Positions 1 to 63,424 of a stretch of DNA of 64,000 nt are shown piece after piece (positions within the stretch are counted from its first letter, which is position 1; each line of letters opens with the position of its first letter). The position numbers and the translations under genes were made by a program. The notes under the pieces are model-generated. The model was not told where the DNA came from. It saw only the letters and a program-made list of their open reading frames with translations, and did no database searches. The stretch comes from Candidatus Parcubacteria bacterium (GTDB lineage: Bacteria > Patescibacteriota > Minisyncoccia > Phycocordibacterales > CAIZLB01): positions 750 through 64,749 of the forward strand of contig JBDKKY010000001.1 in the NCBI GenBank assembly GCA_039795875.1. Reading direction: 5' to 3'.

Positions 1-87
1 GAAAGTATAATAAATATTTTTTTGGCTTTTAGCTTTATCATGGATGATATTATAGTACAGTAACTTTCTTGGTGCAATAAAAAAGTA

Positions 88-6823: not shown

Positions 6824-8007
6824 ATAATTTTTCCTAGTACTTTTATAAATGTCTCCACATGCCGCTTAGTTGTTCCTCTTCCCATACTGATTCGTAGTGA
6901 CGATCCACCACATTCATTACCTAATGCATCCACAACATATGAACGTGAGTCCTCTTGTTTGTTTTGACAAGTTGTTCCAGTTGATAATTCAATACCAGCT
7001 ACATCAAATTTAAATAATAAAAATTCTGCATCTAGTCCTGGCAAACAAATATTTACATTGTTTGAAATTCTTTTATCGGGATCCATAGTGCCATTGATAG
7101 ACACACTTTCTGGTAAATTTTTCTTTATATATTCTTGAAAACTTCTCAAGCGATTATTTTCTTTTTCTTTATCCGCATGTACGAGTCGCAAAGCGGCAGC
7201 AAAACCAACAATACCAGGTAGATTTTCAGTTCCTGGCCGTAGATCAGACTCTTGAGCGCCGCCGAAAAATATCTTATGTATAGGAGTATTTCTCTTGATA
7301 TATAGACATCCTGTGCCTCGAGGACCGTATATCTTACCACCATCAAGCGTCAGCAGGTCAACACCCATCTTGTCAATCTGCATGTCAATATAGTTGGGCG
7401 CCTGACAGGCATCAGTATGAAAAATAGGATAGACACCACCCTGTTCTTTCCTGTATTTTCGAATCAAACTAGCGATCTCGGAGATTGGTTGAATAGTACC
7501 CAATTCGTTGTTAACCAACATGACAGAAACCAAAGCAATATTTTTGTGAGTTTGGAGGATTTCTTTAAGTTCTTTTAAGTCGACTAGGCCATCGGCGTCA
7601 ACTCCGACAAAACTGGCTGTGATTTTACTTTCTTTGATCAGATTCTCTACCAGCTTCTTTACTGAAGGATGTTCGATAGCTGTTGTGACTATATGAGGTA
7701 ATCCTACACCTTTCCAGGCCTTAAGTACCCCTTGAATCGCCATGTTGTTTGATTCGGTACCACCACCTGTGAAAATAATCTCATCAGAGTGAACGCTGTT
7801 GGCAGAAACACCAGAAAGGATAGCCGAAACATCCTTTCTCGACTTTTCTAGGTACTTACTAGCCTGAACCCCTGCGTCATATAAAGATGATGGATTATGC
7901 CAATGACTTTTCAAGATTTTGTTCATGATCTTGACCACCCTCAAATCTACCGGTGTAATAGCGGCATAATCGAGGTAAATCTTTTGGCCAAAAATCCTTG
8001 AAAACAT
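6814..8007 (-). CDS. iscS: cysteine desulfurase (class V aminotransferase, IscS/NifS-like)
   Basis: N-terminal IYLDYAAITPV, SNNMAIQG, TTAIEHPSV, PLP-lysine region HTDACQA; 397 aa. Confidence 0.9.
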   Translation of the reverse strand: MFSRIFGQKIYLDYAAITPVDLRVVKIMNKILKSHWHNPSSLYDAGVQASKYLEKSRKDVSAILSGVSANSVHSDEIIFTGGGTESNNMAIQGVLKAWKGVGLPHIVTTAIEHPSVKKLVENLIKESKITASFVGVDADGLVDLKELKEILQTHKNIALVSVMLVNNELGTIQPISEIASLIRKYRKEQGGVYPIFHTDACQAPNYIDMQIDKMGVDLLTLDGGKIYGPRGTGCLYIKRNTPIHKIFFGGAQESDLRPGTENLPGIVGFAAALRLVHADKEKENNRLRSFQEYIKKNLPESVSINGTMDPDKRISNNVNICLPGLDAEFLLFKFDVAGIELSTGTTCQNKQEDSRSYVVDALGNECGGSSLRISMGRGTTKRHVETFIKVLGKIIKK

Positions 8008-8023
8008 TGTATTTTCCTAAAAA

Positions 8024-10333
8024 ATGTGTATATTTACTTATAACATGGCTATCAAGAAAAACCTACAAAATACCCCTGATGAACAGGTGCCATCTGACGA
8101 TCATAAAGATGATACGGAGGACACTTTTGGTGGTGCCTTTGGAGGAGCTTTCGGCGGAGCCTTTGGAGGTGGTTTTGAAGTCAAATTTAACAGTGATGGC
8201 TCTACTTCTAAGGTGAAAAAGCAGAAAGATGAGGTAGCAGACAAGAAAGACGTCCCTCTTCGATCCTCTTCTCGAACTTTTACTGTGCAGACCGAAGCTC
8301 CAGTTATTCCAGCCAAAAAGACAGAAACCAAACAAGACGCATGGATGGACGAGATCGCCCGCTCATATGAAAAACGCACCAAAGTGGCTGAATCAACACC
8401 CGCAGTTGTTACTCCCCCAGTTCAAGCACCGGTCCACACATTTGTTGCTCCAACTCCTTTTCGATCAAAGATCTTAACAGTTGAAGAGAAAAAAGCTTTG
8501 AAAGCCAAAGAGGAGGCAAGTAAAAACACTCCCCCTGTCACCGCTCAATCAACTGATACTGACCGAGGCACAGCCTTTGCCAAAACATTTTTAAAAAAAC
8601 CAGGAGAGGTGGGTGCTGGTTTCCGAAAACCACTCAGTCCGTTTTCTCGACCGTTTCAACGACCTGACAATCGCGGACCACAAAGTGGTGGTGGATATTT
8701 TAAACGAACACCACGAGTAAAAGTTAAAAATGCTCCCACACTCAAAACTCGAGTCAGTGGAAAATCTTCTCAGAACAAACTAGAGCTAGTGAAAAATCAC
8801 AACGCTGATATCACTCGTCGCGCACCAGTGATCGCTATCATGGGTCACGTCGATCATGGTAAATCAACATTGTTGGATTACATTCGAAAATCAAATACCG
8901 TTGACCGCGAAGTTGGAGGAATCACTCAAAAGATGTCTGCCTACGAAGTGGAGCACAATGGACAAAAGATTACTTTCCTTGATACACCCGGTCACGAAGC
9001 ATTTACCAGCATGCGAGCCCGTGGAGCTAGTGCAGCCGATATTGCGATCTTGATCGTTTCAGCCGAAGACGGTGTAAAACCACAGACTCTTGATGCCTTG
9101 AAAGCAATCACAGATGCCAAGGTTCCCTACTTTATTGGTGCAAGTAAGATTGATAGACCTGGAGCTGATATTGAGAAAGCAAAACAATCTCTAGCAGAAA
9201 ACAGTGTATTCGTAGAAGGATACGGTGGTGATATTTCCATTGTACCTTTCTCAGGAAAAACTGGCGAAGGGATTGATGATTTGCTTGATATGATTCTCTT
9301 GATGGCCGATGTCGCCGATATCAGCGCGGCTCTTGATGTGCCAGCTGAATGTTTGGTCATCGAAGCCAGTCGAGATAAAGTACGAGGTATCCAGGCGACA
9401 TTGATTGTAAAAAATGGAACACTAAAAACTGGTGCTTTTATTATTTCTGGTGGCGAGGTGTCACCGATCCGAAGTATTGAAAATGCAGAAGGTAAGCAGA
9501 TCAAATCTGCCCTTCCAGGACAACCTGTACGAGTCATGGGTTGGATCGCCGAACCTCGCGTTGGAGATATGTGTGTCATGGCAGCAGATAAAGCTATGGC
9601 TGAATTGATCGCTGCAGAACAAAAATCAATACAAGATCTAGCCAAAGAGATGGATGGCACCCCTGTTGAAAAGAAGGGCGGTATTCCTGTAAACATCCGC
9701 GTACTCTATGGTCTTGATAAAGATGATACTTGGACTCTTCCTGTTGTACTGAAAGCAGACAGCGTTGGAACCCTTGATGCTTTGAAGCAAGAGATTGGGA
9801 AAATAAAATTGGAGCGAATCAATATCCGAGTGATCCGTGCTGAGACTGGAGACATCAATGAAAATGATATCAAACTTGCTCAAGGCAGTAATGATTCAGT
9901 TGTACTTGGATACAATACGAAGATCGACGCCGGTGCTCGACGGCTGGCTGAAGCCACAAAAACAACTGTCGAGACATTTGATATTATTTATAAACTGATC
10001 GAATGGACGACAGAGGAGGCGCAAAAACGAGCACCGAAAGTCCGAAACGAAGAATCTCACTCTACTCTCAAAGTACTGAAAGTGTTTAGTGCAAATAAAC
10101 ACAAACAAGTTCTTGGAGGACGAGTAGAGACAGGTACGCTATCACTTGGTAACACGGTCAAGATCTTACGACGAGAAAATGAAATCGGACGCGGTGAAGT
10201 TGTTGAGCTACAACAAATGCGTGTTGCAACGAAAACTGTCGAGGCTGGTGCTGAGTGTGGATTGATGGTTGAATCAAAGATCGAAATCGTCGCGGGTGAC
10301 GTTCTATCAGCTGTATCATTTATAGAAAGATAA
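8024..10333 (+). CDS. infB: translation initiation factor IF-2
   Basis: G domain [25 protein letters not shown], canonical domain order; N-terminal [16 protein letters not shown] repeat; alternative start at 8045 (MAIKK). Confidence 0.95.
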
Positions 10334-10338
10334 TTTAT

Positions 10339-10680
10339 ATGAAGAAAACTAACAACGCACGAAGCAAAGAAGTCACTCGAGGACGAGGAACATCAATTGT
10401 TCGACAACTGCTCGATCAATATATTTCTCGTAACTCTGGTGGACAATCATTGATCACCATCACATCACTTGAACAAGCTGATCGAAGCAACAACATGATG
10501 GTCCGTGTTTCTGTTTTACCTGAGACTCAGGAAAAAGCAGTGATCGATTTTCTACAACGACATGCGACTGAGATGCGAAATTATATTAAGGAAAATTCAG
10601 CCTTGGGCATGCTACCCTTTCTGTCTTTTGAAATTGATCAAGGTGAAAAACATAGACAAAGCATTTTTGAGATTATCTAG
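10339..10680 (+). CDS. rbfA: ribosome-binding factor A
   Basis: 113 aa directly downstream of infB in the conserved infB-rbfA order; RbfA-like pattern (ITITSLEQADRSNNMMVRVSVL ... LPFLSFEID). Confidence 0.7.
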   Translation: MKKTNNARSKEVTRGRGTSIVRQLLDQYISRNSGGQSLITITSLEQADRSNNMMVRVSVLPETQEKAVIDFLQRHATEMRNYIKENSALGMLPFLSFEIDQGEKHRQSIFEII

Positions 10681-10723
10681 CATCCGTGCTATATTGGCTC
10701 TGTGGTAGATCTATGCCTATATT

Positions 10724-10797
10724 GGCGCAGTGGCGAAGTGGCCCAACGCGGCAGTTTGCAAAACTGATATTCGCCGGTTCGACTCCGGCCTGCGCCT
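10724..10797 (+). tRNA. tRNA-Cys (GCA)
   Basis: GGCGCAG/CTGCGCC acceptor, anticodon loop TTGCAAA, T-arm GCCGG-TTCGACT-CCGGC. Confidence 0.8.
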
Positions 10798-10803
10798 CCC
10801 AAC

Positions 10804-10886
10804 GCCTTGGTGGTGGAATGGTAGACACGAGAGACTTAAAATCTCTTGGTAGCAATACCGTGCGGGTTCGAGTCCCGCCCTCGGCA
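10804..10886 (+). tRNA. tRNA-Leu (TAA), long variable arm
   Basis: GCCTTGGTGGTGGAATGGTAGACACG 5' half typical of tRNA-Leu, anticodon arm AGAGA-CTTAAAA-TCTCT, long variable arm, T-arm GCGGG-TTCGAGT-CCCGC. Confidence 0.8.
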
Positions 10887-10890
10887 CAAT

Positions 10891-10930
10891 AAACATAAAA
10901 GCATCCTTCGGGGTGCTTTTATGTTTATTG
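10891..10930 (+). terminator. intrinsic terminator after tRNA-Leu
   Basis: near-perfect hairpin AAACATAAAAGCATCC-TTCG-GGGTGCTTTTATGTTT with a TTCG tetraloop and U-rich tail. Confidence 0.75.
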
Positions 10931-11076
10931 CCAGAGGGACGGGACGAGAAAGCCGGAACCCTGTTGCCATGTCCCAACGGGACGGCAACAAGTGAGGCGG
11001 GGCTGCGCAAAAATTGCGCAGCAATTTTATGTGTAGCCGAGCCCCTCCCTAGCCTTGTAAGGGTCGAGTCCCACCA

Positions 11077-11105
11077 TTGACTCCTCGAACTACTAGTTAT
11101 ATAAT
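11077..11105 (+). promoter_or_regulatory. consensus sigma70 promoter TTGACT-17 nt-TATAAT
   Basis: exact -35 and -10 consensus with a 17-nt spacer, inside the GC-rich island. Confidence 0.5.
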
Positions 11106-11129
11106 ACCGATGGGCACGTGCCCCTACCT

Positions 11130-11276
11130 ATGAGACCCCTAACCGTCCTGTTCTTCCTCGCCCTTATCTGGACCGTCAACCGACACAACAACTCCAGCAA
11201 AAAGAGCCATCCGCCTACTGTAACCACCGAAACAGTAACGGCAGGAGCATCCATCCCCAACCCTGATCAGAAATAA
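11130..11276 (+). CDS. putative 48-aa single-TM peptide
   Basis: hand-translated MRPLTVLFFLALIWTVNRHNNSSKKSHPPTVTTETVTAGASIPNPDQK; downstream of the consensus promoter; GC-rich. Confidence 0.25.
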   Translation: MRPLTVLFFLALIWTVNRHNNSSKKSHPPTVTTETVTAGASIPNPDQK

Positions 11277-11472
11277 CACTGGTCAGAACCTTCCATCACC
11301 TGCAGCCTTGCTGCATGAGTGATTGGGAGGATTTTTTTTATTTGGGCCTTATTTTAAAAGATTATTTACCCTTTTAATCTCACTCGAGTCCTTGACTTTT
11401 ATACATATATATTATAGGATGATACACGAGCTTATTTGAAGGCTTTAAACCTTCCAGAACCATAAGCTCACC

Positions 11473-11739
11473 TTGAAAACGCAAAAAATGAACACCAACC
11501 GCATCGCAATTGGGCTTTGTCTGCTCGGAGCGATTGGCGTCCTTCATTGGGCCGCCACTCATCCAGCCGATAAAGCATCACCGGACACGGCCGTCACCAC
11601 GACATCTGCGCCCAAAAAAACCAAAACCCATAACCCGGGAGTCGTAGCGCAGCTGGAGGGTCACGCCTCCTTCAACCAAACTGCCCCCACAAAACTCGAA
11701 GTCAAACCCGAAATCACCATCCACCCCATCTCCCAGTAA
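11473..11739 (+). CDS. small secreted protein (signal peptide) in the GC-rich island
   Basis: 88 aa; N-terminal hydrophobic segment IAIGLCLLGAIGVL; about 58% GC. Confidence 0.45.
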   Translation: MKTQKMNTNRIAIGLCLLGAIGVLHWAATHPADKASPDTAVTTTSAPKKTKTHNPGVVAQLEGHASFNQTAPTKLEVKPEITIHPISQ

Positions 11740-11742
11740 AAC

Positions 11743-12949
11743 ATGAAAACCATCCTACACTTCTTCATCCTGCTCATCCTCATCACCACCAGCTTCGGCC
11801 AGGTCATCCCCGGCGCCGCACCACCGGTGCCGGCCGGGTTCCCTGCACAAATCCCAGCCTCCTTCGAGGAGGCATGGGACGCAGCGATCACCCGCTCCAC
11901 GACCTACCGTCGCCACATCGGCAGCAACCCTGGCGGTGAAGGTGAGCTGACAGTCATCGGTGGTGGTGCACAGAATCTCGTCGCCATCCTCACTACGCCA
12001 GGAACAATGGACACCATCGACAATGCGACAACGCTCGACAACGCGTACTTCCGGTTGGCCGACGAAAGGACAACCGTGTACGTCTCACGCACCATCACCG
12101 ATGGCGACGGGTTCAGTACGTTCGAATCGTACAGCTCGTTCCAGTTGGAAAAAATCGAGGGACCGGTCGTTATCGGACAGCCCGTCCTGTCACAGCCCAC
12201 GTATCGCATCCCGGAATGGGCCCGGGCAGTCGGATACAACCTGTCCTACTATACGCCTATCCCCTTGCCGGACAATGTGAACAATGCCGAGGTCATCACG
12301 TATGATCCAGAGCGCCCCTGGCACGTCGAAACACATGAGATGCCCATCATCCGGCACGGAGCCAAGACGTTCGTGATGATGGAAAATTGGATCTACGGAG
12401 ATCCAGAACTGCTGAAAAACTCAGTTCTGGTCATCCATACAGACACGGATCCTGTTCGCTACGACTTCGGAGATGGCGGACAGATCTCGAAGCGCCGGAC
12501 CTCTCCGGTTGGCATCGCACCGACTCGCGTCGAATGGAATGGCGGAAAAAAAAATCCGCATCCCTTACACGACCGGGGAACTGGCCCCAGTTGAAGAAAC
12601 TATCTTTCGCTACGGCGAAGAAGGTCAGTTCCTCGAAAACGTCGTGTATGACATCGCCATGACCAACGCGCCGGCAAACAGCTTCAAGATCTTGAGGTTT
12701 CGTGTGCTCGGTCAGTGGGGCAACGGCGGTGTAGCACCTACCGCGCTCCGCATCGTCACCCGCAACAGTGCAGGTGTGGTGGTCGAGAATGCCACGGAAC
12801 CGTTGAGTATCAACTCGGACCTCTGGTTCCGGGTCATCCTACGCAGTAGCGCATCATCCTGCCGCGTCTGGGCTATCTGGCCCGACGGCATCACAACCAC
12901 CAACGGCCAACAGTATGGCCGTCCGACCATGACGGAGAAAGGAAACTAA
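11743..12949 (+). pseudogene. secreted protein gene broken by a frameshift at an A9 tract (track ORFs 11743..12594 and 12473..12949)
   Basis: signal peptide MKTILHFFILLILITTSFG; frames join exactly at GGCGG-AAAAAAAAA-TCCGC (12546-12554); removing one A gives a continuous ~402-aa ORF (...VEWNGGKK|IRIPYTTGELAPVEE...). Confidence 0.5.
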
Positions 12950-12989
12950 CCCTCCGTCATATCCAACCCGAACTTTTAACCCCTAACCA

Positions 12990-13033
12990 CCCGCTCGCAC
13001 AGACCCAACTGTGCGCGCGGGATTTTTTATTTA
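12990..13033 (+). terminator. intrinsic terminator ending the GC-rich island
   Basis: CCCGCTCGCACAG-acccaa-CTGTGCGCGCGGG then ATTTTTTATTTA. Confidence 0.7.
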
Positions 13034-13036
13034 TAT

Positions 13037-13480
13037 TTACTCAAACACCACCAAAAACTCCACCCCCTCATGCCACATTACATTCCACGGATATGGGGTT
13101 ATAGTCTTACCCTCTCCCTTTCCTTCTCGTATCACTACCGCTTCTAGTCCTGGATCAGCGATGAAAGCCCTCTCGCCTAAAGCCACCGTCCTGGTTCCGT
13201 CAATCAGTTCCTTATGATCAATCTCAAATGACACCAACTCTTCAGCTGTCGCAGCTCGTGCAATCATATCATCATGCGCCAATCCATTTATACTTTTTAG
13301 TGCATCATCTGAAGTAATAGGCTTGTTTGGGCGCCACACATATCCTTTTTTCTTACCAATAACATGTGAGGAAAAATTCTTGGAATTTATTTCAGGCAAC
13401 ATTAACTCTACATCAAACCCAGCTTCTTTTATTTTCTCTTCAAATGAAGAATCGGTAACTTCAAAGTCGTATATTTGCAT
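13037..13480 (-). CDS. hypothetical protein (147 aa)
   Basis: intact ORF, baseline composition, no recognised motif. Confidence 0.5.
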   Translation of the reverse strand: MQIYDFEVTDSSFEEKIKEAGFDVELMLPEINSKNFSSHVIGKKKGYVWRPNKPITSDDALKSINGLAHDDMIARAATAEELVSFEIDHKELIDGTRTVALGERAFIADPGLEAVVIREGKGEGKTITPYPWNVMWHEGVEFLVVFE

Positions 13481-13487
13481 AAATCTA

Positions 13488-14651
13488 TTATAGCAATTTT
13501 TGATATACCTCCTCTATCCTATCCACCATGTGTCGCAAGGTAAACTTTTCTGGAAACGAAGATTTACTCAATGTCATCTTTCTGATCTTCTTAGCATTTA
13601 AAAAATCTATAATCTTTTCTGTTAAAAACTTGGCGGAACCTGGAGGCACCAACGGTGCAGCAGCGTATTGCTCGATCTCCGGGATACCACCAACCCGTGT
13701 AGCGATAAAGGGAACTTTAGCCAACATCATCTCAAGTAGGGCATATGGAAAACCTTCTTTAACAGACGGCATGACAAATAGATCAAACGCTTTGGCATAT
13801 CGATATGCATCAGGGATAGCTCCAACTAAAAAGAATATTGTTCCGAGATCCAATTCTTTGATCTGTTGTTCTAATTCTTGCCGCAATTCACCTTCACCAA
13901 TCACTACAAAGATAGTATTGTCCAGACCTTTGTATCGTCGTGCCAGATATGCTGCTTGTATCAGATGCGTCACACCTTTGGCCGAATACAGATTGGCCAC
14001 CAGTCCAATCATACGCACAGTCTGTGGCAAAGCGATTCCCATTTTTCTATATATCACTTCTCGAGCGTCGTTCCGCTCCAAAATCTTATCAACATTTTGC
14101 TCATTGATTCCATTGTAAATAACGGCACCTTTTTTCTTTGGAATAATGTGCATGTGCCGACCAACATCAAAATCGAATTTGGAAACGGTGATTGTAAAAT
14201 TTCTAAAGAAGCGTGAAATAAACTCTGACAGAATATAAAAATATCTTTTCAGTTTCGACATCGGTTCTGTGAAAACAAAACCATGAACTGTATAGACAAC
14301 CTTGGCCCCAGCTAATTTGGCAGCAACAGCGCAGACCGAACCAGCCTTAGAACTATGCAGATGTACAATCTCGGGACGAATCGATCTGACCAACTTAATT
14401 GTTTCTAAACCAGCTTTGATATCTCTCCAAAAACTAACAGAACGACTCAGATTTTTAATCATTCGCAATTGGTGGCCTTGAAAACCGTGAACTTTCAGTT
14501 CTCCAAATAGCCAAGCATCTTGCGGACCTTCTTGAATCCCAGTCGCCACATACGTTTGATGTCCTTTGCTTTGTAGACCAACAATAACATCACGCACATG
14601 GGCTTGAGCTCCTCCCCTTTCACCTTGAGTAATGATATGAAGAATTTTCAT
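13488..14651 (-). CDS. glycosyltransferase family 4 (GT-B fold)
   Basis: N-terminal MKILHIITQGERGGAQAHV and a C-terminal EGFPYALLEMMLAKVPFIATRVGGIPE motif typical of GT4/RfaB-like enzymes. Confidence 0.8.
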   Translation of the reverse strand: MKILHIITQGERGGAQAHVRDVIVGLQSKGHQTYVATGIQEGPQDAWLFGELKVHGFQGHQLRMIKNLSRSVSFWRDIKAGLETIKLVRSIRPEIVHLHSSKAGSVCAVAAKLAGAKVVYTVHGFVFTEPMSKLKRYFYILSEFISRFFRNFTITVSKFDFDVGRHMHIIPKKKGAVIYNGINEQNVDKILERNDAREVIYRKMGIALPQTVRMIGLVANLYSAKGVTHLIQAAYLARRYKGLDNTIFVVIGEGELRQELEQQIKELDLGTIFFLVGAIPDAYRYAKAFDLFVMPSVKEGFPYALLEMMLAKVPFIATRVGGIPEIEQYAAAPLVPPGSAKFLTEKIIDFLNAKKIRKMTLSKSSFPEKFTLRHMVDRIEEVYQKLL

Positions 14652-14668
14652 ACAGCGCTATGCCCAGA

Positions 14669-15451
14669 TTATACTATATCTTTGTCTATGTATAGCTCGA
14701 CAGCTGCTTGAAAATCTTTTGGAAGTGGCGACTCAAAGTTTCTCATCTTGCCTTTTAAGTCGACGAAGTTGATCATGTGTGCATGTAAAGCCTGGCGGCC
14801 AAACCCTAAAGCTTTTGGATGAGATGGTGCATACAGTGTATCGGCAACAATAACGTGATTCACAACTTTCATATGAACGCGGAGCTGATGCGTTCTACCT
14901 GTTCGCGGTCGGAGTGACATATATGAAAAACGTGGAGTGATAGCAACTTTGGGAAATTTCTTAGTTTCAAATTCTCCTAACACTTCATATTCGGTGACGG
15001 CATCTCGCATGTCACCACGAGCAAAACGTCCAGCTGAATATTGCCGAAAATCTGTTCGACTACGTCCAATAGGTGCATTAATAATTCCTTTCTTAGTCCC
15101 TTCTTTAAACCAGCCCCAAACAAAAGCTCGATATTCTTTTTGTACCAAGTGCTCTTGAAACTGAGTTTTAATATGATCAAAAAACTTTTTTGTTCGAGCG
15201 AAGATCATCACGCCTGACGTCTCAGCATCAAGTCTATGAACTACCCCTGGACGCTCCACAGTGATCAAGGTGCCACCCTTCTCTGTCAATTGCATAGGTT
15301 CACCGATCTTGGACAGATCAGGATACAACTTAACCAACTGCTCACACAGAGTCTCCTTATCACCAGACCCTGGCTTGCCATCAGGGTGCGTGACAACACC
15401 TGCCGGTTTGTCGACAATAATAAAATCTTTCTCTTCATGCAGGATTTTCAT
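14669..15451 (-). CDS. RluA-family pseudouridine synthase
   Basis: IIVDKPAGVVTHP and the catalytic HRLDAETSGVMIFA motif. Confidence 0.85.
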   Translation of the reverse strand: MKILHEEKDFIIVDKPAGVVTHPDGKPGSGDKETLCEQLVKLYPDLSKIGEPMQLTEKGGTLITVERPGVVHRLDAETSGVMIFARTKKFFDHIKTQFQEHLVQKEYRAFVWGWFKEGTKKGIINAPIGRSRTDFRQYSAGRFARGDMRDAVTEYEVLGEFETKKFPKVAITPRFSYMSLRPRTGRTHQLRVHMKVVNHVIVADTLYAPSHPKALGFGRQALHAHMINFVDLKGKMRNFESPLPKDFQAAVELYIDKDIV

Positions 15452-15501
15452 ACTATTGACTGTATCAGTATAACGTTACACAATCAAGCTCTACCGCTTT
15501 G

Positions 15502-16119
15502 TTATATCAATCTTTTTAACTGCTCCAACTCTTGCGCTAGCTTGTCTGAATCTTTCTTATAATTTTCAAAATTGCGCTTAGCGATCTCCATCTTTTCTCG
15601 AATACTGGTAACAAAAGCTGTTTTTTTGTCGGTGATCATTTTGGCCGTCTTACCATTCTGCTCTAGCCTAGAAATATCTTGAATCAGTCTCTGGTGTCTG
15701 TTTTTAAATGATAGCAAGTCCGCTTCCATCTGATGAATTTTCTTTTCCAAATCCTCAGCTTCTTTTTTGTGTGTCGGTAGGTCTTGTATAGCTCGCTTTT
15801 CTTCGGATTCAGCATGACCAACTTCTGTCTCATATCGAGTTAGCTCTGCGTGCAATCTCCTCTCCTCATTCTGAAAACGTTCTTGTGAGGCCAACAGCCC
15901 ATCATGTTCTCGCTTTTTACTATCATATTCCATTCGTGCACGCTCTTTATCTCTTCGCTCTTTTTCTTTTTTTAAATATTCCATCTCCATCCGCTGAGCA
16001 CCACCAGCATCATATGTACCACTATGAGAGGCACCACGAATTTCCTCAAGTTTGTTTTGAGTTATTCGATTTGTACTATTATTGTTTTGTCTTGACGGAG
16101 GGGTTGTAATGCCAAACAT
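15502..16119 (-). CDS. coiled-coil protein of unknown function
   Basis: 205 aa, highly charged heptad-like E/K/R-rich sequence. Confidence 0.5.
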   Translation of the reverse strand: MFGITTPPSRQNNNSTNRITQNKLEEIRGASHSGTYDAGGAQRMEMEYLKKEKERRDKERARMEYDSKKREHDGLLASQERFQNEERRLHAELTRYETEVGHAESEEKRAIQDLPTHKKEAEDLEKKIHQMEADLLSFKNRHQRLIQDISRLEQNGKTAKMITDKKTAFVTSIREKMEIAKRNFENYKKDSDKLAQELEQLKRLI

Positions 16120-25364: not shown

Positions 25365-25370
25365 GTCATG

Positions 25371-25443
25371 TGCGCATGCTTGGGTTCGAACCAAGGACCT
25401 TTCGAGTATCAGTCGAATGCTCTACCAACTGAGCTACACGCGC
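25371..25443 (-). tRNA. tRNA-Ile (GAT)
   Basis: GCGCGTG acceptor, anticodon arm TTCGA-CTGATAC-TCGAA, T-arm CTTGG-TTCGAAC-CCAAG. Confidence 0.85.
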
Positions 25444-25669
25444 ATTATTCGTCTTCGTTCTCGGACCGCACGAAGCAGTCCTTCACTCATCCTCATAATG
25501 AAGAAGACAAGACATTCTCCGCGCTCCGACGCTTCACGATAGAAGCGCTGCGCGCATCGTCGTAAATGCCTACAGAGACGTGGACAATCTACAACGACGA
25601 ATAAACGATATTATACACAAAAACTGCCATTTGGCAATTTATTCTGATTTTAAATAGCTATTTTGGACC

Positions 25670-26272
25670 TTATTTAGCAACAGCTTTTTGTACGAAGAAC
25701 TTACCAGCGTCCTCCATTTCTGTCAAAGACTCACAGGCATTTGTTCCAGACAATCGGCCTGCATTTGTAGCAGTTGCCTTACCTCGTAGCTTAGGGTCAG
25801 ACTCTGTCGAACTTACAAGTTCACCCAATGAACCATATGTGTCAACTCGCTTCTTAATATACATCTCAACCGCAGTACGTGATTCTGCCCCACTGTCGGC
25901 AACAAAGACTTTGGTGTCTGATTTTGCGGGGAATGCCGGAGCTGACGCCGCATCTGTATACCAGGCAAATGTACATGAAGTATTTCTCTGTACTATGGCT
26001 GATCTACTATAATTACAAGCTGAACGCTCCATACATCCATCTCCACCTTGTCCTGGGACGTATCTACCTTGTCCTGGGACATATCCACCTTTTGTGACAT
26101 CACCTGATACAGCGCCTGCTGTAGGAGTTGTTGCAGTAGTAGGGTTATTTATCAATACTGCCTTAGTTGTGGCGGCTTGATTATCTTTATTGCTAATCGA
26201 TGTGCGTACACTGTAGACAATTGACGCTACAATAATTGCCAAAAGAACAACAATAGTTAATGTTTTTTTCAT
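25670..26272 (-). CDS. hypothetical signal-anchored secreted protein encoded in the 16S/tRNA-Ile spacer
   Basis: 200 aa; N-terminal TM LTIVVLLAIIVASIVY; contains a 21-nt tandem duplication encoding YVPGQG RYVPGQG. Confidence 0.5.
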   Translation of the reverse strand: MKKTLTIVVLLAIIVASIVYSVRTSISNKDNQAATTKAVLINNPTTATTPTAGAVSGDVTKGGYVPGQGRYVPGQGGDGCMERSACNYSRSAIVQRNTSCTFAWYTDAASAPAFPAKSDTKVFVADSGAESRTAVEMYIKKRVDTYGSLGELVSSTESDPKLRGKATATNAGRLSGTNACESLTEMEDAGKFFVQKAVAK

Positions 26273-26566
26273 ATACTAATATTGTATCACCTACTTCAAG
26301 AAAAAGAAAAAACCTTTATGAACATAATTCACACAGGTCTTTTCTCAACAAATAAGAATTTTCACAAATCAACGCTTGTTACAAGTTAAATAATTAAATC
26401 TATTATTTTGTTCTGTTTGGCCAGTCTTTCCTGGGGTCAAAATCTTTACGTGATTCCCACGCTCTAAATGCGACGAGTTAGAGTCTCGTTTATACAGTGC
26501 AAGCAAAGTATAAGAACGACCGCTATAAATTTTATACCCTCCCTAAAGAGGACATAAAACAGTTTT

Positions 26567-28110
<1,544 letters not shown>

Positions 28111-36059: not shown

Positions 36060-37820
36060 CTAGTAAGTAACTGATGCTGTATCCATTAATTCGAATCCTT
36101 GTGTTTGTGCAACTTGTGATCCTCCTGTTGGTGTCCACAAAACTTTTGCAATCACAGCTTTGTATACTCCTGTTGAAGGGATTGAAGTTGTTCCGAAGAA
36201 TGCTGTGAACTCTGCGTTCTTAACAGCTCCTTCTGGGAATGTTGCTAGTCCACTCTCAACTACGGCTGTAGTTGTAGATGTTGAAGCAACAGCACCACTG
36301 TTTACGTTAACTAGTTGGATTACAGCTTGTAGAGTACCAGTGTTGATTGGACCTCCTTGTGCTGTAACTGTAGCAACGAACTTAGCTTCGATACCTGTAG
36401 GTTGAGCGTTTGCTCCGTTCTTGATAACAGTTGCTGATGAAGAAACTTTACCAAATTGTGGAACGACAGGGGCTAGGTAGTGGTAAGGACCTGCGATGTT
36501 AAGACCAGTCTGAGTTTCTGAAGAACCGTTTGGTTTTTCATATGTGACTTCTGTAACTGCTGTAGAAACTGTTGTTCCTGTAGCTGTGTTAGATGGGAAG
36601 TCTGCTCGGATTGTGAATGTCTTAGTTGTATCTTGTTCTACGTACACACTGTAGTTGTTTAGATCAAATGTAACTGTAGCTGGAGACGCTAGAGATGTCA
36701 CTGATCGTGCATCAATAAGTGTTGATCCATCATACAAGTATACGTTTGAAGGCAATGTACTTGAGTTTGTGTATGTTGAAGTTGTAGCGATTGAAACTTT
36801 TACAGCTGTAATCTTTGATCGGCCAGTTTCTGACTTCACAGCGAATGTAGATGTAAGAACTTTCTCTGCTCCATTTCCTGTTCGACTTACTCGGTAGTTC
36901 ATTGAGTAAACTGTTACAGCATCTGATCGTACTGAAGATTGTGATGTACCTGGTTTCTTGAATGTATGTACTCGTGTATCAGATAGTGCGTTATAACTAC
37001 TGATTCCTCGTCCATCCACTGTTCGAATACCTGATTGACCATAAACTCCTACTGTTACAACTCGATCTGAGTCAATTGAGTTTGTATCAAATGTTACTGT
37101 AAGTGTTTTTAGAGTATCTTTTGAAACTTTAACTCCTAGACCAGCGATTTGTAGGTAGTATTGATTTGGTGTAACTGAAGTATCTTTTGAGAAAGAACTT
37201 GAGTTAACGGGTACTGAAGCGATAACTGTTGAACCGTCTTTGATAGTAACTTTGTTAACCAAAGTTGCTGGGTTCTCGAGTGATCCTGCTTGAGTAACTG
37301 CAACCAATAGGTTGATTCTCTCAACTAGGATATCAGATTGCTTAGCCTTGAATTCAACTGCGTAAACTGGAACGTCAATGTTTGTTTGAACATTTGGGTT
37401 GTTTGTTACAACTGGAGAAACTCGTACTTCAGCAAATCCTTCTGATCCTACTAGTGTAGGACTTGTTGGAGTTGTTGCTGTACATGTAAATCCTGTTGGG
37501 CAAGTTGCTCCTGGAGTAGGTGTAGTTGCAACTGGTGATGAGTTAAGAACTCCTCGTGTTAGAACTCCTACAAAGCCTGTTCCTGGAAGATTGTTAGCTA
37601 ACTGGAATGCTACTACGGCTCGTTTTGTAACTGAACCGAAGTATCCTGTAGCTGCAACGTTAAAGAAACCTGCGTCTGCTAGATAGTTTTGAAGTGCTGT
37701 TACATCAGCTCCTCGCATACCTAGTTGTAGGCTTTTGTTAAACATGAATCCTTGCGCTGAAGCTGTTACAGAAACTGTAAGAGCAAGAGCAAAAATTGCT
37801 GCTGAAATTGATTTTTTCAT
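36060..37820 (-). CDS. secreted Thr/Ser/Val-rich surface protein with an N-terminal peptidoglycan-binding (PG_binding_1-like) domain
   Basis: signal peptide, then LQLGMRGADVTALQNYLADAGFF...GYFGSVTKRAVVAFQ. Confidence 0.6.
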   Translation of the reverse strand: MKKSISAAIFALALTVSVTASAQGFMFNKSLQLGMRGADVTALQNYLADAGFFNVAATGYFGSVTKRAVVAFQLANNLPGTGFVGVLTRGVLNSSPVATTPTPGATCPTGFTCTATTPTSPTLVGSEGFAEVRVSPVVTNNPNVQTNIDVPVYAVEFKAKQSDILVERINLLVAVTQAGSLENPATLVNKVTIKDGSTVIASVPVNSSSFSKDTSVTPNQYYLQIAGLGVKVSKDTLKTLTVTFDTNSIDSDRVVTVGVYGQSGIRTVDGRGISSYNALSDTRVHTFKKPGTSQSSVRSDAVTVYSMNYRVSRTGNGAEKVLTSTFAVKSETGRSKITAVKVSIATTSTYTNSSTLPSNVYLYDGSTLIDARSVTSLASPATVTFDLNNYSVYVEQDTTKTFTIRADFPSNTATGTTVSTAVTEVTYEKPNGSSETQTGLNIAGPYHYLAPVVPQFGKVSSSATVIKNGANAQPTGIEAKFVATVTAQGGPINTGTLQAVIQLVNVNSGAVASTSTTTAVVESGLATFPEGAVKNAEFTAFFGTTSIPSTGVYKAVIAKVLWTPTGGSQVAQTQGFELMDTASVTY

Positions 37821-41741: not shown

Positions 41742-42863
41742 ATGCAAAAGAAAAAAAATACTACTAAACCGAAAAACCAAAAAGAAAGAGAAGACGATGA
41801 CAAACTAGAACTAGAAGAGGTAGAAGGTCAGAGTTCCGGCGCTAAGAAAAAAGGCGTCGGCAGTCGAGGTGACGATCAAGGTGTTAACATCAGCGACACT
41901 ATTGCCGAGATCAAGAGTCGTTTTGGAGACGAATCAATCATGAAGCTTGGGGAAAAACCCAAAGTTGATGTTGATGTTGTTCCGACCGGATCTATTGGAC
42001 TAGATGCAGCACTCGGTGTAGGTGGGCTACCTCGAGGAAGAATCATCGAGATCTTCGGACCAGAATCATCTGGTAAGACAACTCTTGCCCTTCATGTCAT
42101 CGCTGAAGCTCAAAAGAAGAATGGTATCTGCGCCTTCATCGATGCTGAACACTCACTGGATCCTGATTATGCTCAGAGACTTGGAGTAAAGATCGACAAT
42201 CTCCTACTCTCTCAACCAGATGCAGGCGAGCAAGCTCTTGAGATTGTTGAGAGCCTCGTTCGAAGTGGAAAGATCGATGTTATTGTTATCGACTCAGTTG
42301 CTGCTCTAACACCTAAAGACGAGATCGAGGGTGATATGGGCGCTCAACACATGGGTAAGCAAGCACGACTTATGTCTCAGGCTTTGCGAAAACTTACTGC
42401 TATCGTAGCCAAGAGTAAAACTATTGTTATCTTTATCAACCAGATCCGTATGCAAATCGGTGTGATGTTTGGTAACCCTGAAACAACACCAGGAGGAAAA
42501 GCGCTTAAGTTCTACACATCTATTCGACTCGACATTCGACGTATTGCTCAGATCAAGAAAGGAGAAGATGTTATGGGAGGACGCGTACGAGTAAAAGTGG
42601 TAAAGAACAAAGTCGCTGCACCATTCCGTCAAACAGAATTCGACCTTATGTACAACGAAGGTATTTCTCTAGAAGGAGAGATGATCGCTCTTGGAGAAAA
42701 AATGAAACTTATACAAAAGAGCGGTTCATCCTATGCATATGGCGATATAAAACTCGGCCGTGGCTATGACGCAACTCGACAATTTTTGAAAGATAAAGAA
42801 AATAAGGACATCAAGGCCAAGATCTTGAAAGAGATTCGTGAAGGTCTTAAGAATGCAGCGTAG
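41742..42863 (+). CDS. recA: recombinase RecA (with a ~45-aa lysine/acidic N-terminal extension)
   Basis: [13 protein letters not shown] Walker A, loops L1/L2, strong end-to-end RecA identity. Confidence 0.97.
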
Positions 42864-58000: not shown

Positions 58001-58291
58001 ATGGAAACAAACACTACACTACCCAATATACTCAAAAACACTCCCGAGCTTCCTGCTCACCGTTTCGGCTACCACACCATGGCCAGCAGATATGGAATCT
58101 CCTACCTCGATGTTTTCGCTACCACCGCCCGTCTTCAAGAGGGTGTTACTGTGGTTGGATGGCGTCGTGAAGGAGAAACTGCATTTATGGTTATGTTTGA
58201 AATGCCGGATGGACAAGAAGTGTTCTTCCACTACTCTGAAAAAATGTTTACTGTCGGACTAATGAAAGACGTCTTCGAGAACAGGAAGTGA
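58001..58291 (+). CDS. hypothetical protein (96 aa), first gene of a GC-richer three-gene block
   Basis: intact ORF, about 48-52% GC. Confidence 0.4.
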   Translation: METNTTLPNILKNTPELPAHRFGYHTMASRYGISYLDVFATTARLQEGVTVVGWRREGETAFMVMFEMPDGQEVFFHYSEKMFTVGLMKDVFENRK

Positions 58292-58388
58292 TACAACCCT
58301 GACGGTGGCCACGTGCTGCCGTTGGGGATTTATTTTGCATTTTTGATAAAGTCGTATAGTATACGAGCAAACAACCCCCCCATCATTC

Positions 58389-59024
58389 ATGGACCTTCCA
58401 ACAGCAATAATCCCAGCAATACAACTCACAGGCAAAGTCGAGTGGGTCGGACTCACCCCTCCACTTGGCAATTCAGCGGCAATCCCACGAAAGAGAATCG
58501 ATGTCTTTCAGGGTCAGGGAGTACAGTACGACAAGCATTGGGGCACACGGACTCTGGATGTGCGCGATGAAGTAGCCCAAGCATTCGGGCTGAAAAAAGG
58601 GCTCGAATGCTTCAACATGCGGCAGTGGAGTGCAGTTTCTGCAGAAGAGGTCGCCTTGATTGCCGCAGACATGGGCATACCCGACATCGAGTCTGGAGAC
58701 TTGGGTGAAAATCTGATCGTCTCGGGTATTCCGAATTTCACCTTGTTGCCACCCGGCACGCTGATTTTCTTCAAAGATGCACGGAAGGATACCCGGACCA
58801 CTATCCTGTGCGTCTATGCTGAGAATCAGCCATGCTACATCCCGGCCCAGATCATCCAAGCAAAAAACAAAGGGGTGCCTGGTTTGGTGGGAACATTTGA
58901 CTCCCACGCCCGCAATCGTCGTGGCCTCGTCGGTTGGACCATGTGTTCCGGCATCATTAAGCCCAATGATACTGTGATCGCCTACGTTCCCGCACAGCGT
59001 CCATACCTTGCTCAGATGGCTTGA
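58389..59024 (+). CDS. MOSC-domain protein
   Basis: GDLGENLIVSGI and surrounding beta-barrel pattern typical of MOSC (MOCO sulfurase C-terminal) domains. Confidence 0.6.
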   Translation: MDLPTAIIPAIQLTGKVEWVGLTPPLGNSAAIPRKRIDVFQGQGVQYDKHWGTRTLDVRDEVAQAFGLKKGLECFNMRQWSAVSAEEVALIAADMGIPDIESGDLGENLIVSGIPNFTLLPPGTLIFFKDARKDTRTTILCVYAENQPCYIPAQIIQAKNKGVPGLVGTFDSHARNRRGLVGWTMCSGIIKPNDTVIAYVPAQRPYLAQMA

Positions 59025-59210
59025 AGAGCCATATTACGAGAGCCGTCCAGGAAACTGGGCGGCGCTTTTTATACTAGACTTCCCAAACCCTCTCGGGTAT
59101 ATTTCGAGTAGAGCTTCGAATAGTTCGAGGCACTTGCAGGCCTAGAAAACCTGTATCACCAAACCCGTGGTTTTACGGTCCGCCGTTTCTCCACACAAGC
59201 ACATATAACA

Positions 59211-63421: not shown

Positions 63422-63424
63422 ATG

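What the first reader, a model, noticed from the sequence alone, without database searches (positions are those of the whole stretch)
10921..13033. GC-rich (about 55-58%) island inserted directly after tRNA-Cys/tRNA-Leu in a ~40% GC genome
Composition rises sharply right after the tRNA-Leu terminator and falls again at a strong GC-rich terminator at 12990-13033. The block carries its own consensus promoters (TTGACT-17-TATAAT at 11077; TTGACT at 11392) and encodes only secreted or membrane products: a 48-aa TM peptide, an 88-aa signal-peptide protein, and a ~400-aa secreted protein. A tRNA-adjacent, compositionally foreign block of this kind is the classic signature of horizontal acquisition, yet I find no integrase, transposase or flanking direct repeat, so the mobilisation mechanism is unclear.
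Basis: seen in the sequence. Interest (0 to 1): 0.7.

Follow-up and report, generated by a model that had tools for sequence, protein, structure and literature searches.

The report
GC-rich swappable secreted-protein gene cassette
The GC-rich block after tRNA-Leu is not a freshly inserted foreign island but a two-gene cassette (small membrane protein plus secreted protein) that sits at this spot in every close relative found, keeps its odd GC-rich codon usage in all of them, and is swapped between lineages as deeply different alleles.

Summary
Bases 10921-13033 are 54% GC (ORF C 57.5%, GC3 0.70) in a 42.5% GC window, directly after tRNA-Cys/tRNA-Leu, with the stated promoters and terminator. 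The "~400-aa" gene is split by a +1 frameshift in an A9 run (12546-12554).

Nine relatives' alleles from independent assemblies carry the small ORF B plus ORF C. Wherever context is visible the pair lies between tRNA-Leu and a convergent glycosyltransferase gene, except upstream in L086. All have GC3 0.59-0.72 against flanks of 0.25-0.39, although synonymous sites are saturated. That rules out misassembly, recent insertion and un-ameliorated ancient acquisition.

The cassette (ORF B 3' third plus ORF C) exists as deeply divergent alleles (33-39% aa identity between types, against 73-89% in flanking proteins). It has sharp boundaries inside conserved promoter and terminator DNA. One allele is shared by two lineages at dS 0.46 where their flanks are saturated, which indicates lateral allele replacement by homologous recombination. 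No integrase is involved.

The family has no Pfam, PHROG, NCBIfam or PADLOC match and no specific fold match. Codon usage is extremely C-ending, and the mRNA folds better than synonymous shuffles in all four alleles tested. What maintains this is unexplained.

The parts
10724..10887 (+). tRNA-Cys(GCA) 10724-10799 and tRNA-Leu(UAA) 10804-10887. This is the conserved left anchor of the locus, 92-100% identical across relatives.
10888..10929 (+). tRNA operon terminator: a 19-bp perfect hairpin followed by a T-run.
   Evidence: the fold of 10888-11080 gives z = -6.5; sequence
10930..11076 (+). GC-rich non-coding spacer. It contains hairpins at 10963-10989 and 11002-11022, an inverted partial copy of the tRNA-Leu 3' end (~10929-10950) and a direct T-arm-like fragment (11061-11075). 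It is homologous to the spacers of L004 and L173.
11077..11105 (+). Promoter P1, TTGACT-17-TATAAT. It is orthologous to the promoter that drives ORF B directly in L001 and L004.
11130..11276 (+). ORF A, 48 aa: a TM segment followed by a Pro/Thr linker ending at 'NPDQK'. It is not conserved: absent in L001 and L004, mostly deleted in L085. It is probably a relic 5' half of an older ORF B allele (inference).
11293..11345 (+). Imperfect hairpin plus a T8 run after ORF A (terminator-like). Conserved in L085.
   Evidence: sequence; alignment
11392..11420 (+). Promoter P2, TTGACT-17-TAGGAT. The -35 TTGAC is invariant in five lineages.
11421..11487 (+). 5' UTR with a stem-loop (GAAGG 11438-42 / CCTTC 11450-54). 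About 95% identical to L085. Other lineages have a different stem-loop at the same place. No Shine-Dalgarno sequence is visible.
11488..11739 (+). ORF B, 83 aa from the conserved ATGAAC start (88 aa from TTG 11473). It has an N-terminal TM/signal anchor, a Pro/Thr/Ser linker, the conserved motif VAQLEGxASF and a variable tail. It is mosaic: the N-terminal class and the C-terminal class have different relatives, and the C-terminal class tracks the ORF C type.
11743..12594 (+). ORF C 5' part (283-aa ORF as it stands). It has a signal peptide (MKTILHFFILLILITTSFG|Q) and a beta-rich N-domain. In-frame coding ends functionally at GGKK (12552).
12546..12554 (+). A9 run at the domain junction. It causes a +1 frameshift relative to intact relatives. 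L001 and L084 have A8; L172 has GGC GGC AAG AAA ATC.
12539..12949 (+). ORF C 3' part (136 aa from ATG 12539; homologous from codon 12554 onward). It is a beta-sandwich C-domain, 74-75% identical to L001 and L084.
12990..13033 (+). Intrinsic terminator of the cassette. It marks the right boundary where identity to L085 returns to about 0.8.
13037..13480 (-). 147-aa orphan ORF, a variable neighbour. It is intact in L004, reduced to a 47-aa C-terminal remnant in L085, and absent in L001.
13488..14651 (-). GT4 glycosyltransferase, the conserved convergent right flank (73-80% aa identity among relatives; GC3 0.29-0.36).

Best explanation
The block is a resident, clade-specific locus, not an inserted island. 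It holds a strongly promoted, terminator-bounded two-gene operon. ORF B encodes a small N-terminally membrane-anchored protein. ORF C encodes a signal-peptide-bearing, two-domain, beta-rich secreted or surface protein. The locus lies between tRNA-Leu and a convergent glycosyltransferase gene in a small group of Parcubacteria-like lineages.

The unit made of the ORF B tail plus ORF C behaves as a replaceable cassette. It exists as at least three deeply divergent allele types. These are moved between lineages by homologous recombination, with crossovers in the conserved surroundings (tRNAs, spacer, promoter and ORF B 5' half on the left; terminator on the right).

By inference, the products are exposed at the cell surface and are under diversifying or frequency-dependent pressure from phage, host or partner recognition. 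The ORF B tail probably binds its cognate ORF C.

The high GC is an intrinsic, actively maintained property of the cassette: C-ending codons plus an mRNA that folds better than its protein and codon usage require. By inference this reflects selection on the transcript or its translation (stability, or very high or paced expression). It is not donor composition.

In this genome the ORF C copy is split at the domain junction by one extra A in a homopolymer.

Shown: conservation, synteny, persistent composition, allele types, sharp boundaries, discordant divergence, purifying selection, excess folding. Inferred: surface exposure, ORF B-ORF C interaction, the selective agent, and the reason for GC richness.
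For: Same locus in relatives. The order tRNA-Leu, terminator, TTGAC promoter, ORF B, ORF C, terminator, GT(-), PsU(-) is seen in L001, L004, L085/L168 and L170, with partial views in L084, L086, L172 and L173. The assemblies are independent.

Persistent composition. ORF C GC3 is 0.59-0.72 in nine alleles, against 0.25-0.39 in their flanks.

Saturation. At 4-fold sites, window versus L001 identity is 0.386 against 0.297 expected at random in ORF C, and 0.386 against 0.301 in GT. dS is 1.97 for ORF C, 2.9 for GT and 1.35 for PsU.

Real genes. dN/dS is 0.14 for ORF C and 0.37 for ORF B.

Allele types. ORF C aa identity is 60-83% within types and 33-48% between types, while GT is 73-80% and PsU 83-89% for the same genomes.

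Sharp boundaries. Window versus L085 nucleotide identity is 0.82-0.87 through P2 and the 5'UTR and 0.77-0.85 from the terminator onward, but 0.39-0.64 in between.

Recent exchange. For L085 versus L004, ORF C is 88.6% aa identical with dS 0.46. The same pair has GT dS 3.1, PsU dS 1.37 and rbfA saturated. The high-identity tract (0.77-0.94) runs from mid ORF B to the ORF C stop codon.

ORF B mosaic. All four combinations of N-terminal class and C-terminal class are present.

Recombination machinery. RecA is encoded at 41742-42863.

Codon usage. In ORF C: ATC 33, ATT 0, ATA 0; TTC 14, TTT 2; CGC 14, CGA 0; C3 0.46, T3 0.13. The pattern is similar in all alleles. The NNC fraction is 0.78 against a mean of 0.39 (sd 0.12). 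The next 'normal' genes are recA 0.56, ssb 0.51 and rpsB 0.51.

Folding. With synonymous-codon shuffles the summed z is -6.2, -2.4, -3.0 and -4.5 for four ORF C alleles. Sixteen control genes range from +1.8 to -2.2. All four alleles lie below all sixteen controls, which has rank probability 1/4845 (my arithmetic).

Secretion signals. The conserved A-x-A|Q signal-peptidase motif in homologues is read directly from the sequences. The AF2 model shows an N-terminal helix followed by beta domains.
Against: Function is not demonstrated. There is no family, fold or literature match. Surface exposure rests on signal-peptide-like N-termini only.

High expression is not shown. No Shine-Dalgarno sequence is visible before ORF B or ORF C. 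rpsB, tsf and infB have ordinary GC3 (0.34-0.38), so the bias is far beyond this genome's usual expression-linked bias.

No covariation supports any specific conserved mRNA helix, although only three sequences were compared.

L004 is a co-assembled MAG with N gaps in ORF C. Its mosaic pattern, and the fourth ORF B class combination, could in principle be an assembly chimera of two populations.

In L086 the upstream neighbour is a DUF3800 gene, not tRNA-Leu.

In this window ORF C is frameshifted, so the locus may be non-functional here.
Confidence: 0.7

Rival explanations
1. Recent horizontal acquisition: a foreign GC-rich island inserted at the tRNA-Leu 3' end by a tRNA-targeting integrative element. 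The integrase has since been lost.
For: The block is adjacent to a tRNA and compositionally distinct. Short tRNA-Leu 3'-like fragments lie downstream of the tRNA. L126 has different content in the slot.
Against: The same block sits at the same site with the same GC contrast in every close relative whose context is visible. These relatives have saturated synonymous divergence. No integrase or transposase is present. The tRNA-like fragment lies upstream of the cassette, so the cassette is not between the repeats. The fragments are only marginally significant in the window (15-17 of 500 shuffles). No donor-like homologue was found in 15 billion proteins, IMG/VR, phage records or plasmid records.
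Confidence: 0.04
2. Ancient acquisition from a GC-rich donor in the ancestor of this clade, after the split from the L126 lineage. The present GC is incompletely ameliorated donor composition.
For: L126 lacks the cassette. The family is confined to one small clade. The tRNA-like scar is present.
Against: Synonymous sites are at or near saturation between alleles (identity at 4-fold sites 0.28-0.39 against 0.26-0.30 expected at random). Yet every allele keeps GC3 at 0.59-0.72 while flanks sit at 0.25-0.39. Under a two-state mutation model, a deviation from equilibrium decays by more than 60-90% over that much change. The starting GC3 would then have had to exceed 1 (my calculation, an inference). 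The enrichment is almost all in C3, not G3. That is not what plain donor composition gives.
Confidence: 0.12
3. GC-biased gene conversion: the locus is a recombination hot spot, and repeated conversion tracts drive AT-to-GC fixation at synonymous sites.
For: Recombination at the locus is demonstrated. Recombining genes have higher GC3 in most bacterial groups examined, mainly through non-optimal GC-ending codons (PMC4450053, read).
Against: The shift is strand-asymmetric. C3 rises about three-fold while G3 hardly rises. The NNC/(NNC+NNT) fraction is 0.78, but NNG/(NNG+NNA) is only 0.50. The conserved non-coding DNA that hosts the crossovers (P2, the 5'UTR, and the gap at 11277-11472, which is 38% GC) is not GC-rich. 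A GC3 excess of +0.3 is, by my recollection and not checked against that paper's figures, far larger than reported for bacteria.
Confidence: 0.1
4. Repeated re-import from an unsampled GC-rich reservoir, such as a phage, a plasmid or the host organism of these episymbionts, that carries the cassette with its native codon usage.
For: One allele was exchanged recently between lineages. The codon usage resembles that of a moderately GC-rich organism.
Against: There is no homologue in IMG/VR, INPHARED phages, PLSDB plasmids or JGI metagenome contigs. The only hits among 15 billion proteins lie in this same syntenic context in AT-rich genomes. Promoter, UTR and terminator are host-like and conserved.
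Confidence: 0.08
5. Assembly chimera: a GC-rich fragment from another organism was joined to this contig.
For: There is an abrupt change of composition in a MAG.
Against: The same junctions occur in at least six independent assemblies from different projects. Boundary sequences (spacer, promoter, terminator) are homologous across them.
Confidence: 0.01

Closest known systems
Replacement flexible genomic islands (Lopez-Perez et al. 2014, PMC4033161; read)
   Same: The locus sits at the same genomic position in all strains. Versions are very different but have an equivalent presumed role. The products are exposed or structural. The boundaries carry no integrase or transposase hallmark. Exchange is by homologous recombination in conserved boundaries. 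The 'smoking gun' is a version that is more similar between two lineages than the rest of their genomes (L085/L004).
   Different: It is tiny (about 1.4 kb, one and a half genes) rather than a multi-gene cluster. The alleles are still homologous (33-48% aa identity), not unrelated genes. The lineages involved are far more divergent than the >96% ANI strains in that paper (flanks about 75-85% nucleotide identity). Every allele carries a strong, conserved GC-rich, C-ending codon signature and excess mRNA folding, which is not a described feature of such islands.
S-layer cassette switching in Clostridioides difficile (slpA cassette types; my own knowledge of Dingle et al. 2013; papers using the term are listed but were not read)
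   Same: A highly divergent surface-protein gene is exchanged between lineages by recombination within conserved flanks. It lies next to glycosylation genes and is linked to phage-receptor variation.
tRNA-adjacent integrative genomic islands (integrase-mediated, att repeats formed from the tRNA 3' end)
   Same: It lies next to tRNA genes, has atypical composition, and short tRNA 3'-like repeats are nearby.
   Different: There is no integrase. The cassette lies outside the repeat pair. It is present in all close relatives. Its composition is not decaying.
Homopolymer-mediated phase variation or transcriptional slippage (contingency loci; Thermus dnaX A9 slippage; my own knowledge)
   Same: An A9 run inside a surface-protein gene shifts the frame exactly at a domain junction. 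Relatives have A8 in frame.
   Different: The run is absent in one same-type allele (L172). No length heterogeneity has been observed. It may be a plain mutation or a consensus error.

Membership tests
tRNA-targeting integrative genomic island | Tyrosine or serine integrase (or remnant) at one end | tested here: not met
   The ORFs from 8000 to 15500 are infB, rbfA, three orphans, a 147-aa orphan, GT4 and RluA-like PsU. The orphans have no Pfam, PHROG or PADLOC match.
tRNA-targeting integrative genomic island | The element is bracketed by direct repeats derived from the tRNA 3' end | tested here: not met
   tRNA-Leu-like fragments exist: window 11061-11075 matches 13 of 15, and L004 matches 12 of 12 (7 of 2000 shuffles). 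They lie upstream of the cassette promoter, so only the terminator and spacer are bracketed. No copy lies at the right end.
tRNA-targeting integrative genomic island | Presence/absence polymorphism among close relatives (empty site) | tested here: not met
   Every close relative whose context is visible carries it. Only L126, whose GT is 64% identical, has other content in the slot.
Replacement flexible genomic island | Same chromosomal position in all members, with highly divergent versions | tested here: met
   Synteny. ORF C is 33-48% identical between types, against 73-89% for flanking proteins.
Replacement flexible genomic island | Exchange by homologous recombination in conserved boundaries; a version shared by otherwise divergent lineages | tested here: met
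   Boundaries. For L085 versus L004, ORF C dS is 0.46 against flank dS of 1.4 to saturated. Caveat: L004 is a co-assembly.
Replacement flexible genomic island | Encodes cell-surface-exposed structures | tested here: inconclusive
   The N-termini look like signal peptides or a TM anchor, and an A-x-A|Q motif is conserved (sequences). The model is beta-rich. There are no localisation data.
S-layer protein | Homology or fold match to known S-layer or anchoring domains; very high expression; lattice formation | tested here: not met
Phase-variable contingency gene / programmed slippage | Homopolymer conserved across alleles, and length heterogeneity within populations | tested here: inconclusive
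   L001 and L084 have A8, the window has A9, but L172 has an interrupted run. Read-level heterogeneity cannot be tested here.
Known protein families (Pfam, NCBIfam, PHROGs, PADLOC, PDB sequences) | Significant profile match | tested here: not met
   Searches gave no hit for ORF A, ORF B, ORF C or the 147-aa ORF.

The most novel reading that the evidence does not exclude
The cassette encodes the main exposed surface protein of these ultra-small bacteria (an S-layer-like protein or an attachment or receptor protein), held on the membrane by the ORF B tail. Its GC-rich, C-ending, over-folded mRNA would be a selected device: an RNase-resistant or translation-paced transcript that gives a reduced, AT-rich genome one exceptionally productive message. 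Whole alleles are swapped across species-level boundaries to escape phage or to change partner specificity. The A9 frameshift, and the stop-plus-restart split in L084 at the same domain junction, would then be alternative ways of producing the two domains separately.
Probability: 0.15. Interest if true: 0.65.

Novelty: new variant of a known kind. Interest (0 to 1): 0.45.

Why it matters
This is a clean counter-example to a standard rule of thumb: [quoted passage not shown]. Here the atypical composition is stable through saturating divergence, so it must be maintained. Annotation pipelines that flag islands by composition would misread such loci.

It also defines an orphan two-gene family restricted to a handful of candidate-phyla-radiation lineages. 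The family shows the population-genetic behaviour of a surface antigen or phage-receptor locus. That makes it a concrete candidate for the molecules through which these uncultured, probably symbiotic cells meet their partners and phages.

The unexplained part is a protein-coding gene that holds GC3 near 0.7 and excess mRNA structure inside a genome with GC3 of 0.3-0.4. This is a testable case of selection on synonymous sites in a very small genome.

Tried and rejected
**Searches with no useful hit**
- Rfam, at gathering thresholds and at permissive E-value over 10650-11800, found only the two tRNAs. The block is not a known structured RNA.
- Pfam, PHROGs, NCBIfam, PADLOC and PDB-sequence searches of all island products gave nothing.
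- The cassette was not found on mobile elements: IMG/VR, INPHARED phages and PLSDB plasmids gave no match. JGI metagenome contigs also gave none.

**Searches that needed a second attempt**
- The first genome-contig scan with the GT protein failed because poorly conserved peptides were chosen. It was repeated with a two-sequence alignment.
- The alignment of all alleles was too divergent for pattern scans.

**Ideas tested and set aside**
- tRNA-derived att repeats are marginal in the window (p about 0.03) and better in L004. They are in the wrong position to bracket the cassette.
- ORF A as a conserved gene: rejected, because it is absent or deleted in relatives.
- Ordinary expression-linked codon bias: rpsB, tsf and infB have normal GC3. 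Only a mild NNC preference is seen in recA, ssb and rpsB.
- A specific conserved mRNA structure: RNAalifold gave a covariation term of +2.8, which is no support.
- A conserved slippery A-run: L172 lacks it.
- Tetranucleotide signature: the island is only about 1.3 sd from the window mean, so this is uninformative.
Full report
**1. The observation**

The window is 42.5% GC. One-kb windows have mean 0.426 and sd 0.032. Bases 10921-13033 are 54.3% GC, and only one other stretch (58001-59500) exceeds 50%.

The block starts right after tRNA-Cys (10724-10799) and tRNA-Leu(UAA) (10804-10887) and their 19-bp terminator hairpin. It ends at a strong terminator: a hairpin at 12990-21 plus a U-run, z = -6.8. 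Both promoters are as described: 11077 TTGACT-17-TATAAT (11/12) and 11392 TTGACT-17-TAGGAT (9/12).

The block is not uniform. An AT-rich gap at 11277-11472 (38% GC) separates an upstream GC-rich spacer plus ORF A from ORF B and ORF C.

The "~400-aa" gene is two ORFs: 11743-12594, and 12539-12949 in the +1 frame. They join into a 401-aa protein only if one A of the A9 run at 12546-12554 is dropped. An intact 414-aa homologue aligns across the junction (...WNGGKK|IRI...), which shows this is a frameshift in a once-continuous gene.

At third codon positions the contrast is extreme. ORF C has GC3 0.70, against 0.385 +/- 0.07 for 51 window ORFs.

**2. Relatives carry the same block at the same place and the same GC**

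Exhaustive protein searches covered 5.8 billion clusters and 1.84 billion representatives of about 15 billion proteins. They found the ORF C family in only a handful of lineages. An ORF B profile added four more contigs.

The fetched contigs show the order (infB-rbfA-tRNA-Cys-)tRNA-Leu, terminator, spacer, TTGAC promoter, ORF B, ORF C, terminator, (147-aa ORF), GT4(-), PsU synthase(-). This is seen in L001-3, L004 (a GTDB species-representative MAG), L085/L168/L169 and L170. L084, L086, L172 and L173 give consistent partial views.

Flanking proteins are 73-80% (GT) and 83-89% (PsU) identical. In every lineage ORF C has GC3 0.59-0.72, while the adjacent GT, PsU, infB and rbfA have 0.25-0.39.

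These are independent assemblies from different projects, so a chimeric join is excluded.

**3. The GC is maintained, not left over**

Between the window and L001, identity at 4-fold sites of conserved residues is 0.386 in ORF C (0.297 expected if random). It is 0.386 in GT (0.301 expected). Nei-Gojobori dS is 1.97 for ORF C, 2.9 for GT and 1.35 for PsU.

Synonymous sites are thus essentially randomised in island and flanks alike. Each gene sits at its own composition. Between allele types, identity at 4-fold sites is at the random expectation (0.28-0.33 against 0.25-0.27), and GC3 stays high.

A simple two-state relaxation argument (my inference) says a donor signature would have decayed by well over half. 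Un-ameliorated acquisition therefore cannot explain it.

ORF C and ORF B are under purifying selection, with dN/dS of 0.14 and 0.37.

**4. The cassette is swapped between lineages**

Flanks are roughly equidistant among the window, L001, L085 and L004. ORF C falls into deep types:
- Type 1: window, L001, L084, L172, L173 (60-83% aa identity within the type).
- Type 2a: L085/L168, L004.
- Type 2b: L086, L170.

Identity between types is 33-48%.

Window versus L085 is the sharpest case. Nucleotide identity is 0.82-0.87 through the ORF A terminator, P2 and the 5'UTR. It is 0.77-0.85 from about 30 nt after the ORF C stop through the terminator and the remnant of the 147-aa ORF. In between it is 0.39-0.64. 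Non-coding DNA being far more conserved than the coding DNA it brackets cannot come from relaxed or positive selection alone. It requires allele replacement.

Conversely, L085 and L004 share ORF C at 88.6% aa identity with dS 0.46, although their GT, PsU and rbfA have dS 3.1, 1.37 and saturated. The high-identity tract runs from mid ORF B to the ORF C stop codon.

ORF B is mosaic. Its N-terminal class groups (window, L085, L086, L170) against (L001, L004, L172, L173). Its C-terminal class groups (window, L001, L172, L173) against (L085, L004) and (L086, L170). The C-terminal class always matches the ORF C type. The breakpoint lies at the conserved NPG...VAQLEGxASF motif.

RecA is encoded in the window. 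The near-identical tRNA genes (0.92-1.00) and the conserved promoter and terminator offer anchors for homologous crossovers (inference).

Caveat: L004 is a co-assembly with N gaps, so the L004-dependent statements need confirmation. The window/L085 contrast does not depend on L004.

**5. Deeper history**

L126 (GT 64% identical, same infB-rbfA-tRNA-Cys-tRNA-Leu ... GT frame) has an AT-rich 632-aa orphan gene in the slot and no GC-rich block. The slot is therefore variable on a longer time-scale, and the cassette may have entered the clade's ancestor.

A 12-15-nt copy of the tRNA-Leu T-arm and acceptor 3' strand sits immediately 5' of the -35 of the cassette promoter. In L004 it matches 12/12 (7 of 2000 shuffles). 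In the window at 11061-11075 it matches 13/15 (15 of 500 shuffles). L001 has TTCGAGTCC. It may be a scar of an old tRNA-site event or of a decayed tRNA duplicate. It lies on the wrong side to bracket the cassette.

In the window, P1 (11077) is orthologous to the promoter that drives ORF B directly in L001 and L004. Here it drives ORF A, a TM-plus-linker peptide that stops exactly where ORF B alleles recombine. ORF A is absent or deleted in relatives. I read ORF A as the stranded 5' half of an older ORF B allele (inference).

**6. What the products are**

There is no Pfam, NCBIfam, PHROG, PADLOC or PDB-sequence match for ORF A, ORF B, ORF C or the 147-aa ORF.

ORF C homologues begin with a basic residue, a hydrophobic run, and A-x-A|Q (S-F-G|Q in the window). 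This is a signal-peptidase-I-type leader, read directly from the sequences.

ORF B has an N-terminal hydrophobic anchor, a Pro/Thr/Ser linker, a conserved motif and a type-specific tail. Co-inheritance of that tail with ORF C suggests that the two proteins bind (inference).

The two disruptions seen in type-1 alleles both fall at the same domain junction. One is the window's A9 frameshift. The other is L084's stop codon, a spacer of about 45 nt, then an RBS-like GAGAGG and an ATG before 'MKRITGGKKIRI'. This suggests the domains can work as separate chains. The A-run is A8 in L001 and L084 but interrupted in L172, so a programmed slippage site is not supported.

**7. Why GC-rich?**

The enrichment is mainly a replacement of T3 by C3: C3 is 0.46 and T3 is 0.13 in ORF C, against about 0.15 and 0.33 in reference genes. 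G3 is barely changed. Codon counts are ATC 33/ATT 0/ATA 0, TTC 14/TTT 2 and CGC 14/CGA 0. The same pattern is seen in all alleles.

That strand asymmetry argues against GC-biased gene conversion as the main cause. Recombining bacterial genes do tend to have higher GC3 (PMC4450053), and the locus does recombine.

The direction of the bias matches the mild NNC preference of likely well-expressed genes: recA 0.56, ssb 0.51 and rpsB 0.51, against a mean of 0.39. At 0.78 ORF C is 3.2 sd out, while rpsB, tsf and infB have ordinary GC3.

The transcript also folds more stably than expected. Dinucleotide-shuffle z averages -1.7 to -3.1 over ORF B-C in four alleles, against -0.4 to 0.0 for flanking genes. 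With shuffles that keep the protein and the codon usage, the summed z is -6.2, -2.4, -3.0 and -4.5 for four ORF C alleles. Sixteen control genes range from +1.8 to -2.2. All four alleles lie below all sixteen controls (1/4845 by rank, my arithmetic).

No specific helix is supported by covariation.

My best reading is selection on the message itself, for stability or paced or high translation. I hold this with modest confidence. The cause remains the main unexplained point.

**8. Comparison and verdict**

Functionally the locus behaves like a miniature replacement flexible genomic island (PMC4033161). It also resembles surface-protein cassette switching such as C. difficile slpA (my own knowledge; the term is seen). 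It fails every defining test of an integrase-type tRNA island.

The new elements are these:
- An orphan gene family limited to a few candidate-phyla-radiation lineages.
- Exchange across quite divergent genomes.
- A stable, allele-independent GC-rich, C-ending, over-folded coding signature inside AT-rich genomes.

It is a useful warning case for composition-based island calling and a candidate surface or interaction locus for uncultured Parcubacteria. Its function is unproven, and in this particular genome the main gene is frameshifted.

Interest is 0.45. Novelty: new variant of a known kind.

Noticed in passing
window 58001-59852: This is the second GC-rich patch (about 51% GC). It holds a MOSC-domain gene at 58389-59024 (GC3 0.57) and an orphan ORF at 59211-59852 (GC3 0.51, NNC fraction 0.69). 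It may be a genuine foreign or otherwise atypical pair.
   Followed up: partly
window 63424-63511 (-): ARAGORN calls a tRNA-Ser with anticodon ACT. A34 is unusual for a bacterial Ser tRNA. Rfam scores it as a tRNA at 54 bits.
   Followed up: no
window 25370-28109 (-): A 16S rRNA gene (26568-28109) and tRNA-Ile (25370-25443) are present, but Rfam finds no 23S rRNA anywhere in the window. Protein-coding ORFs follow instead. The rRNA genes appear unlinked.
   Followed up: no
window 8024-10333 (+): The IF-2 N-terminus carries an [17 protein letters not shown] repeat. The repeat is also present in the distant relative L126.
   Followed up: no
window 10930-11076; L004 ~10225-10390 (-); L173 1-110: The GC-rich non-coding spacer between the tRNA-Leu terminator and P1 is conserved in L004 and L173. 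The outer stem of the hairpin at 10963-10989 (GTTGCC/GGCAAC) is GCTTTG/CAAAGC in L004, which is a compensatory change. It may be a structured trailer or a regulatory element. Rfam has no match.
   Followed up: partly
window 10867-10950: A 40-nt imperfect palindrome is centred on the tRNA-Leu terminator loop. As a result ~10929-10950 is an inverted partial copy of the tRNA-Leu 3' end. It is specific to this window.
   Followed up: partly
window 13037-13480 (-): A 147-aa orphan ORF lies next to the cassette. It is intact in L004, reduced to a 47-aa C-terminal remnant in L085 (5310-5453), and absent in L001. It has no family match in four libraries.
   Followed up: partly
window 15451-15502; L004 4592-6193; L168 10656-12203: Relatives have a cofactor-independent phosphoglycerate mutase (iPGM) gene between the PsU synthase gene and the next gene. 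The window has no gene there.
   Followed up: no
L126 7858-9756 (-): In the more distant relative, the tRNA-Leu|GT slot holds a 632-aa AT-rich orphan protein with no Pfam match. A shorter ORF at 7280-7588 shares a similar C-terminal motif (...SDDSKL.L...FVFLA).
   Followed up: partly
L084 1-100: In this type-1 allele the N-domain ORF ends with a stop right after '...VAW'. About 45 nt later, after an RBS-like GAGAGG, a separate ORF begins with 'MKRITGGKKIRI...'. This is a natural gene split at the same domain junction as the window's frameshift.
   Followed up: partly
window 36060-37820 (-): A 586-aa protein with a peptidoglycan-binding domain has very odd codon statistics: GC2 0.50, GC3 0.21, yet an NNC fraction of 0.66.
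   Followed up: no
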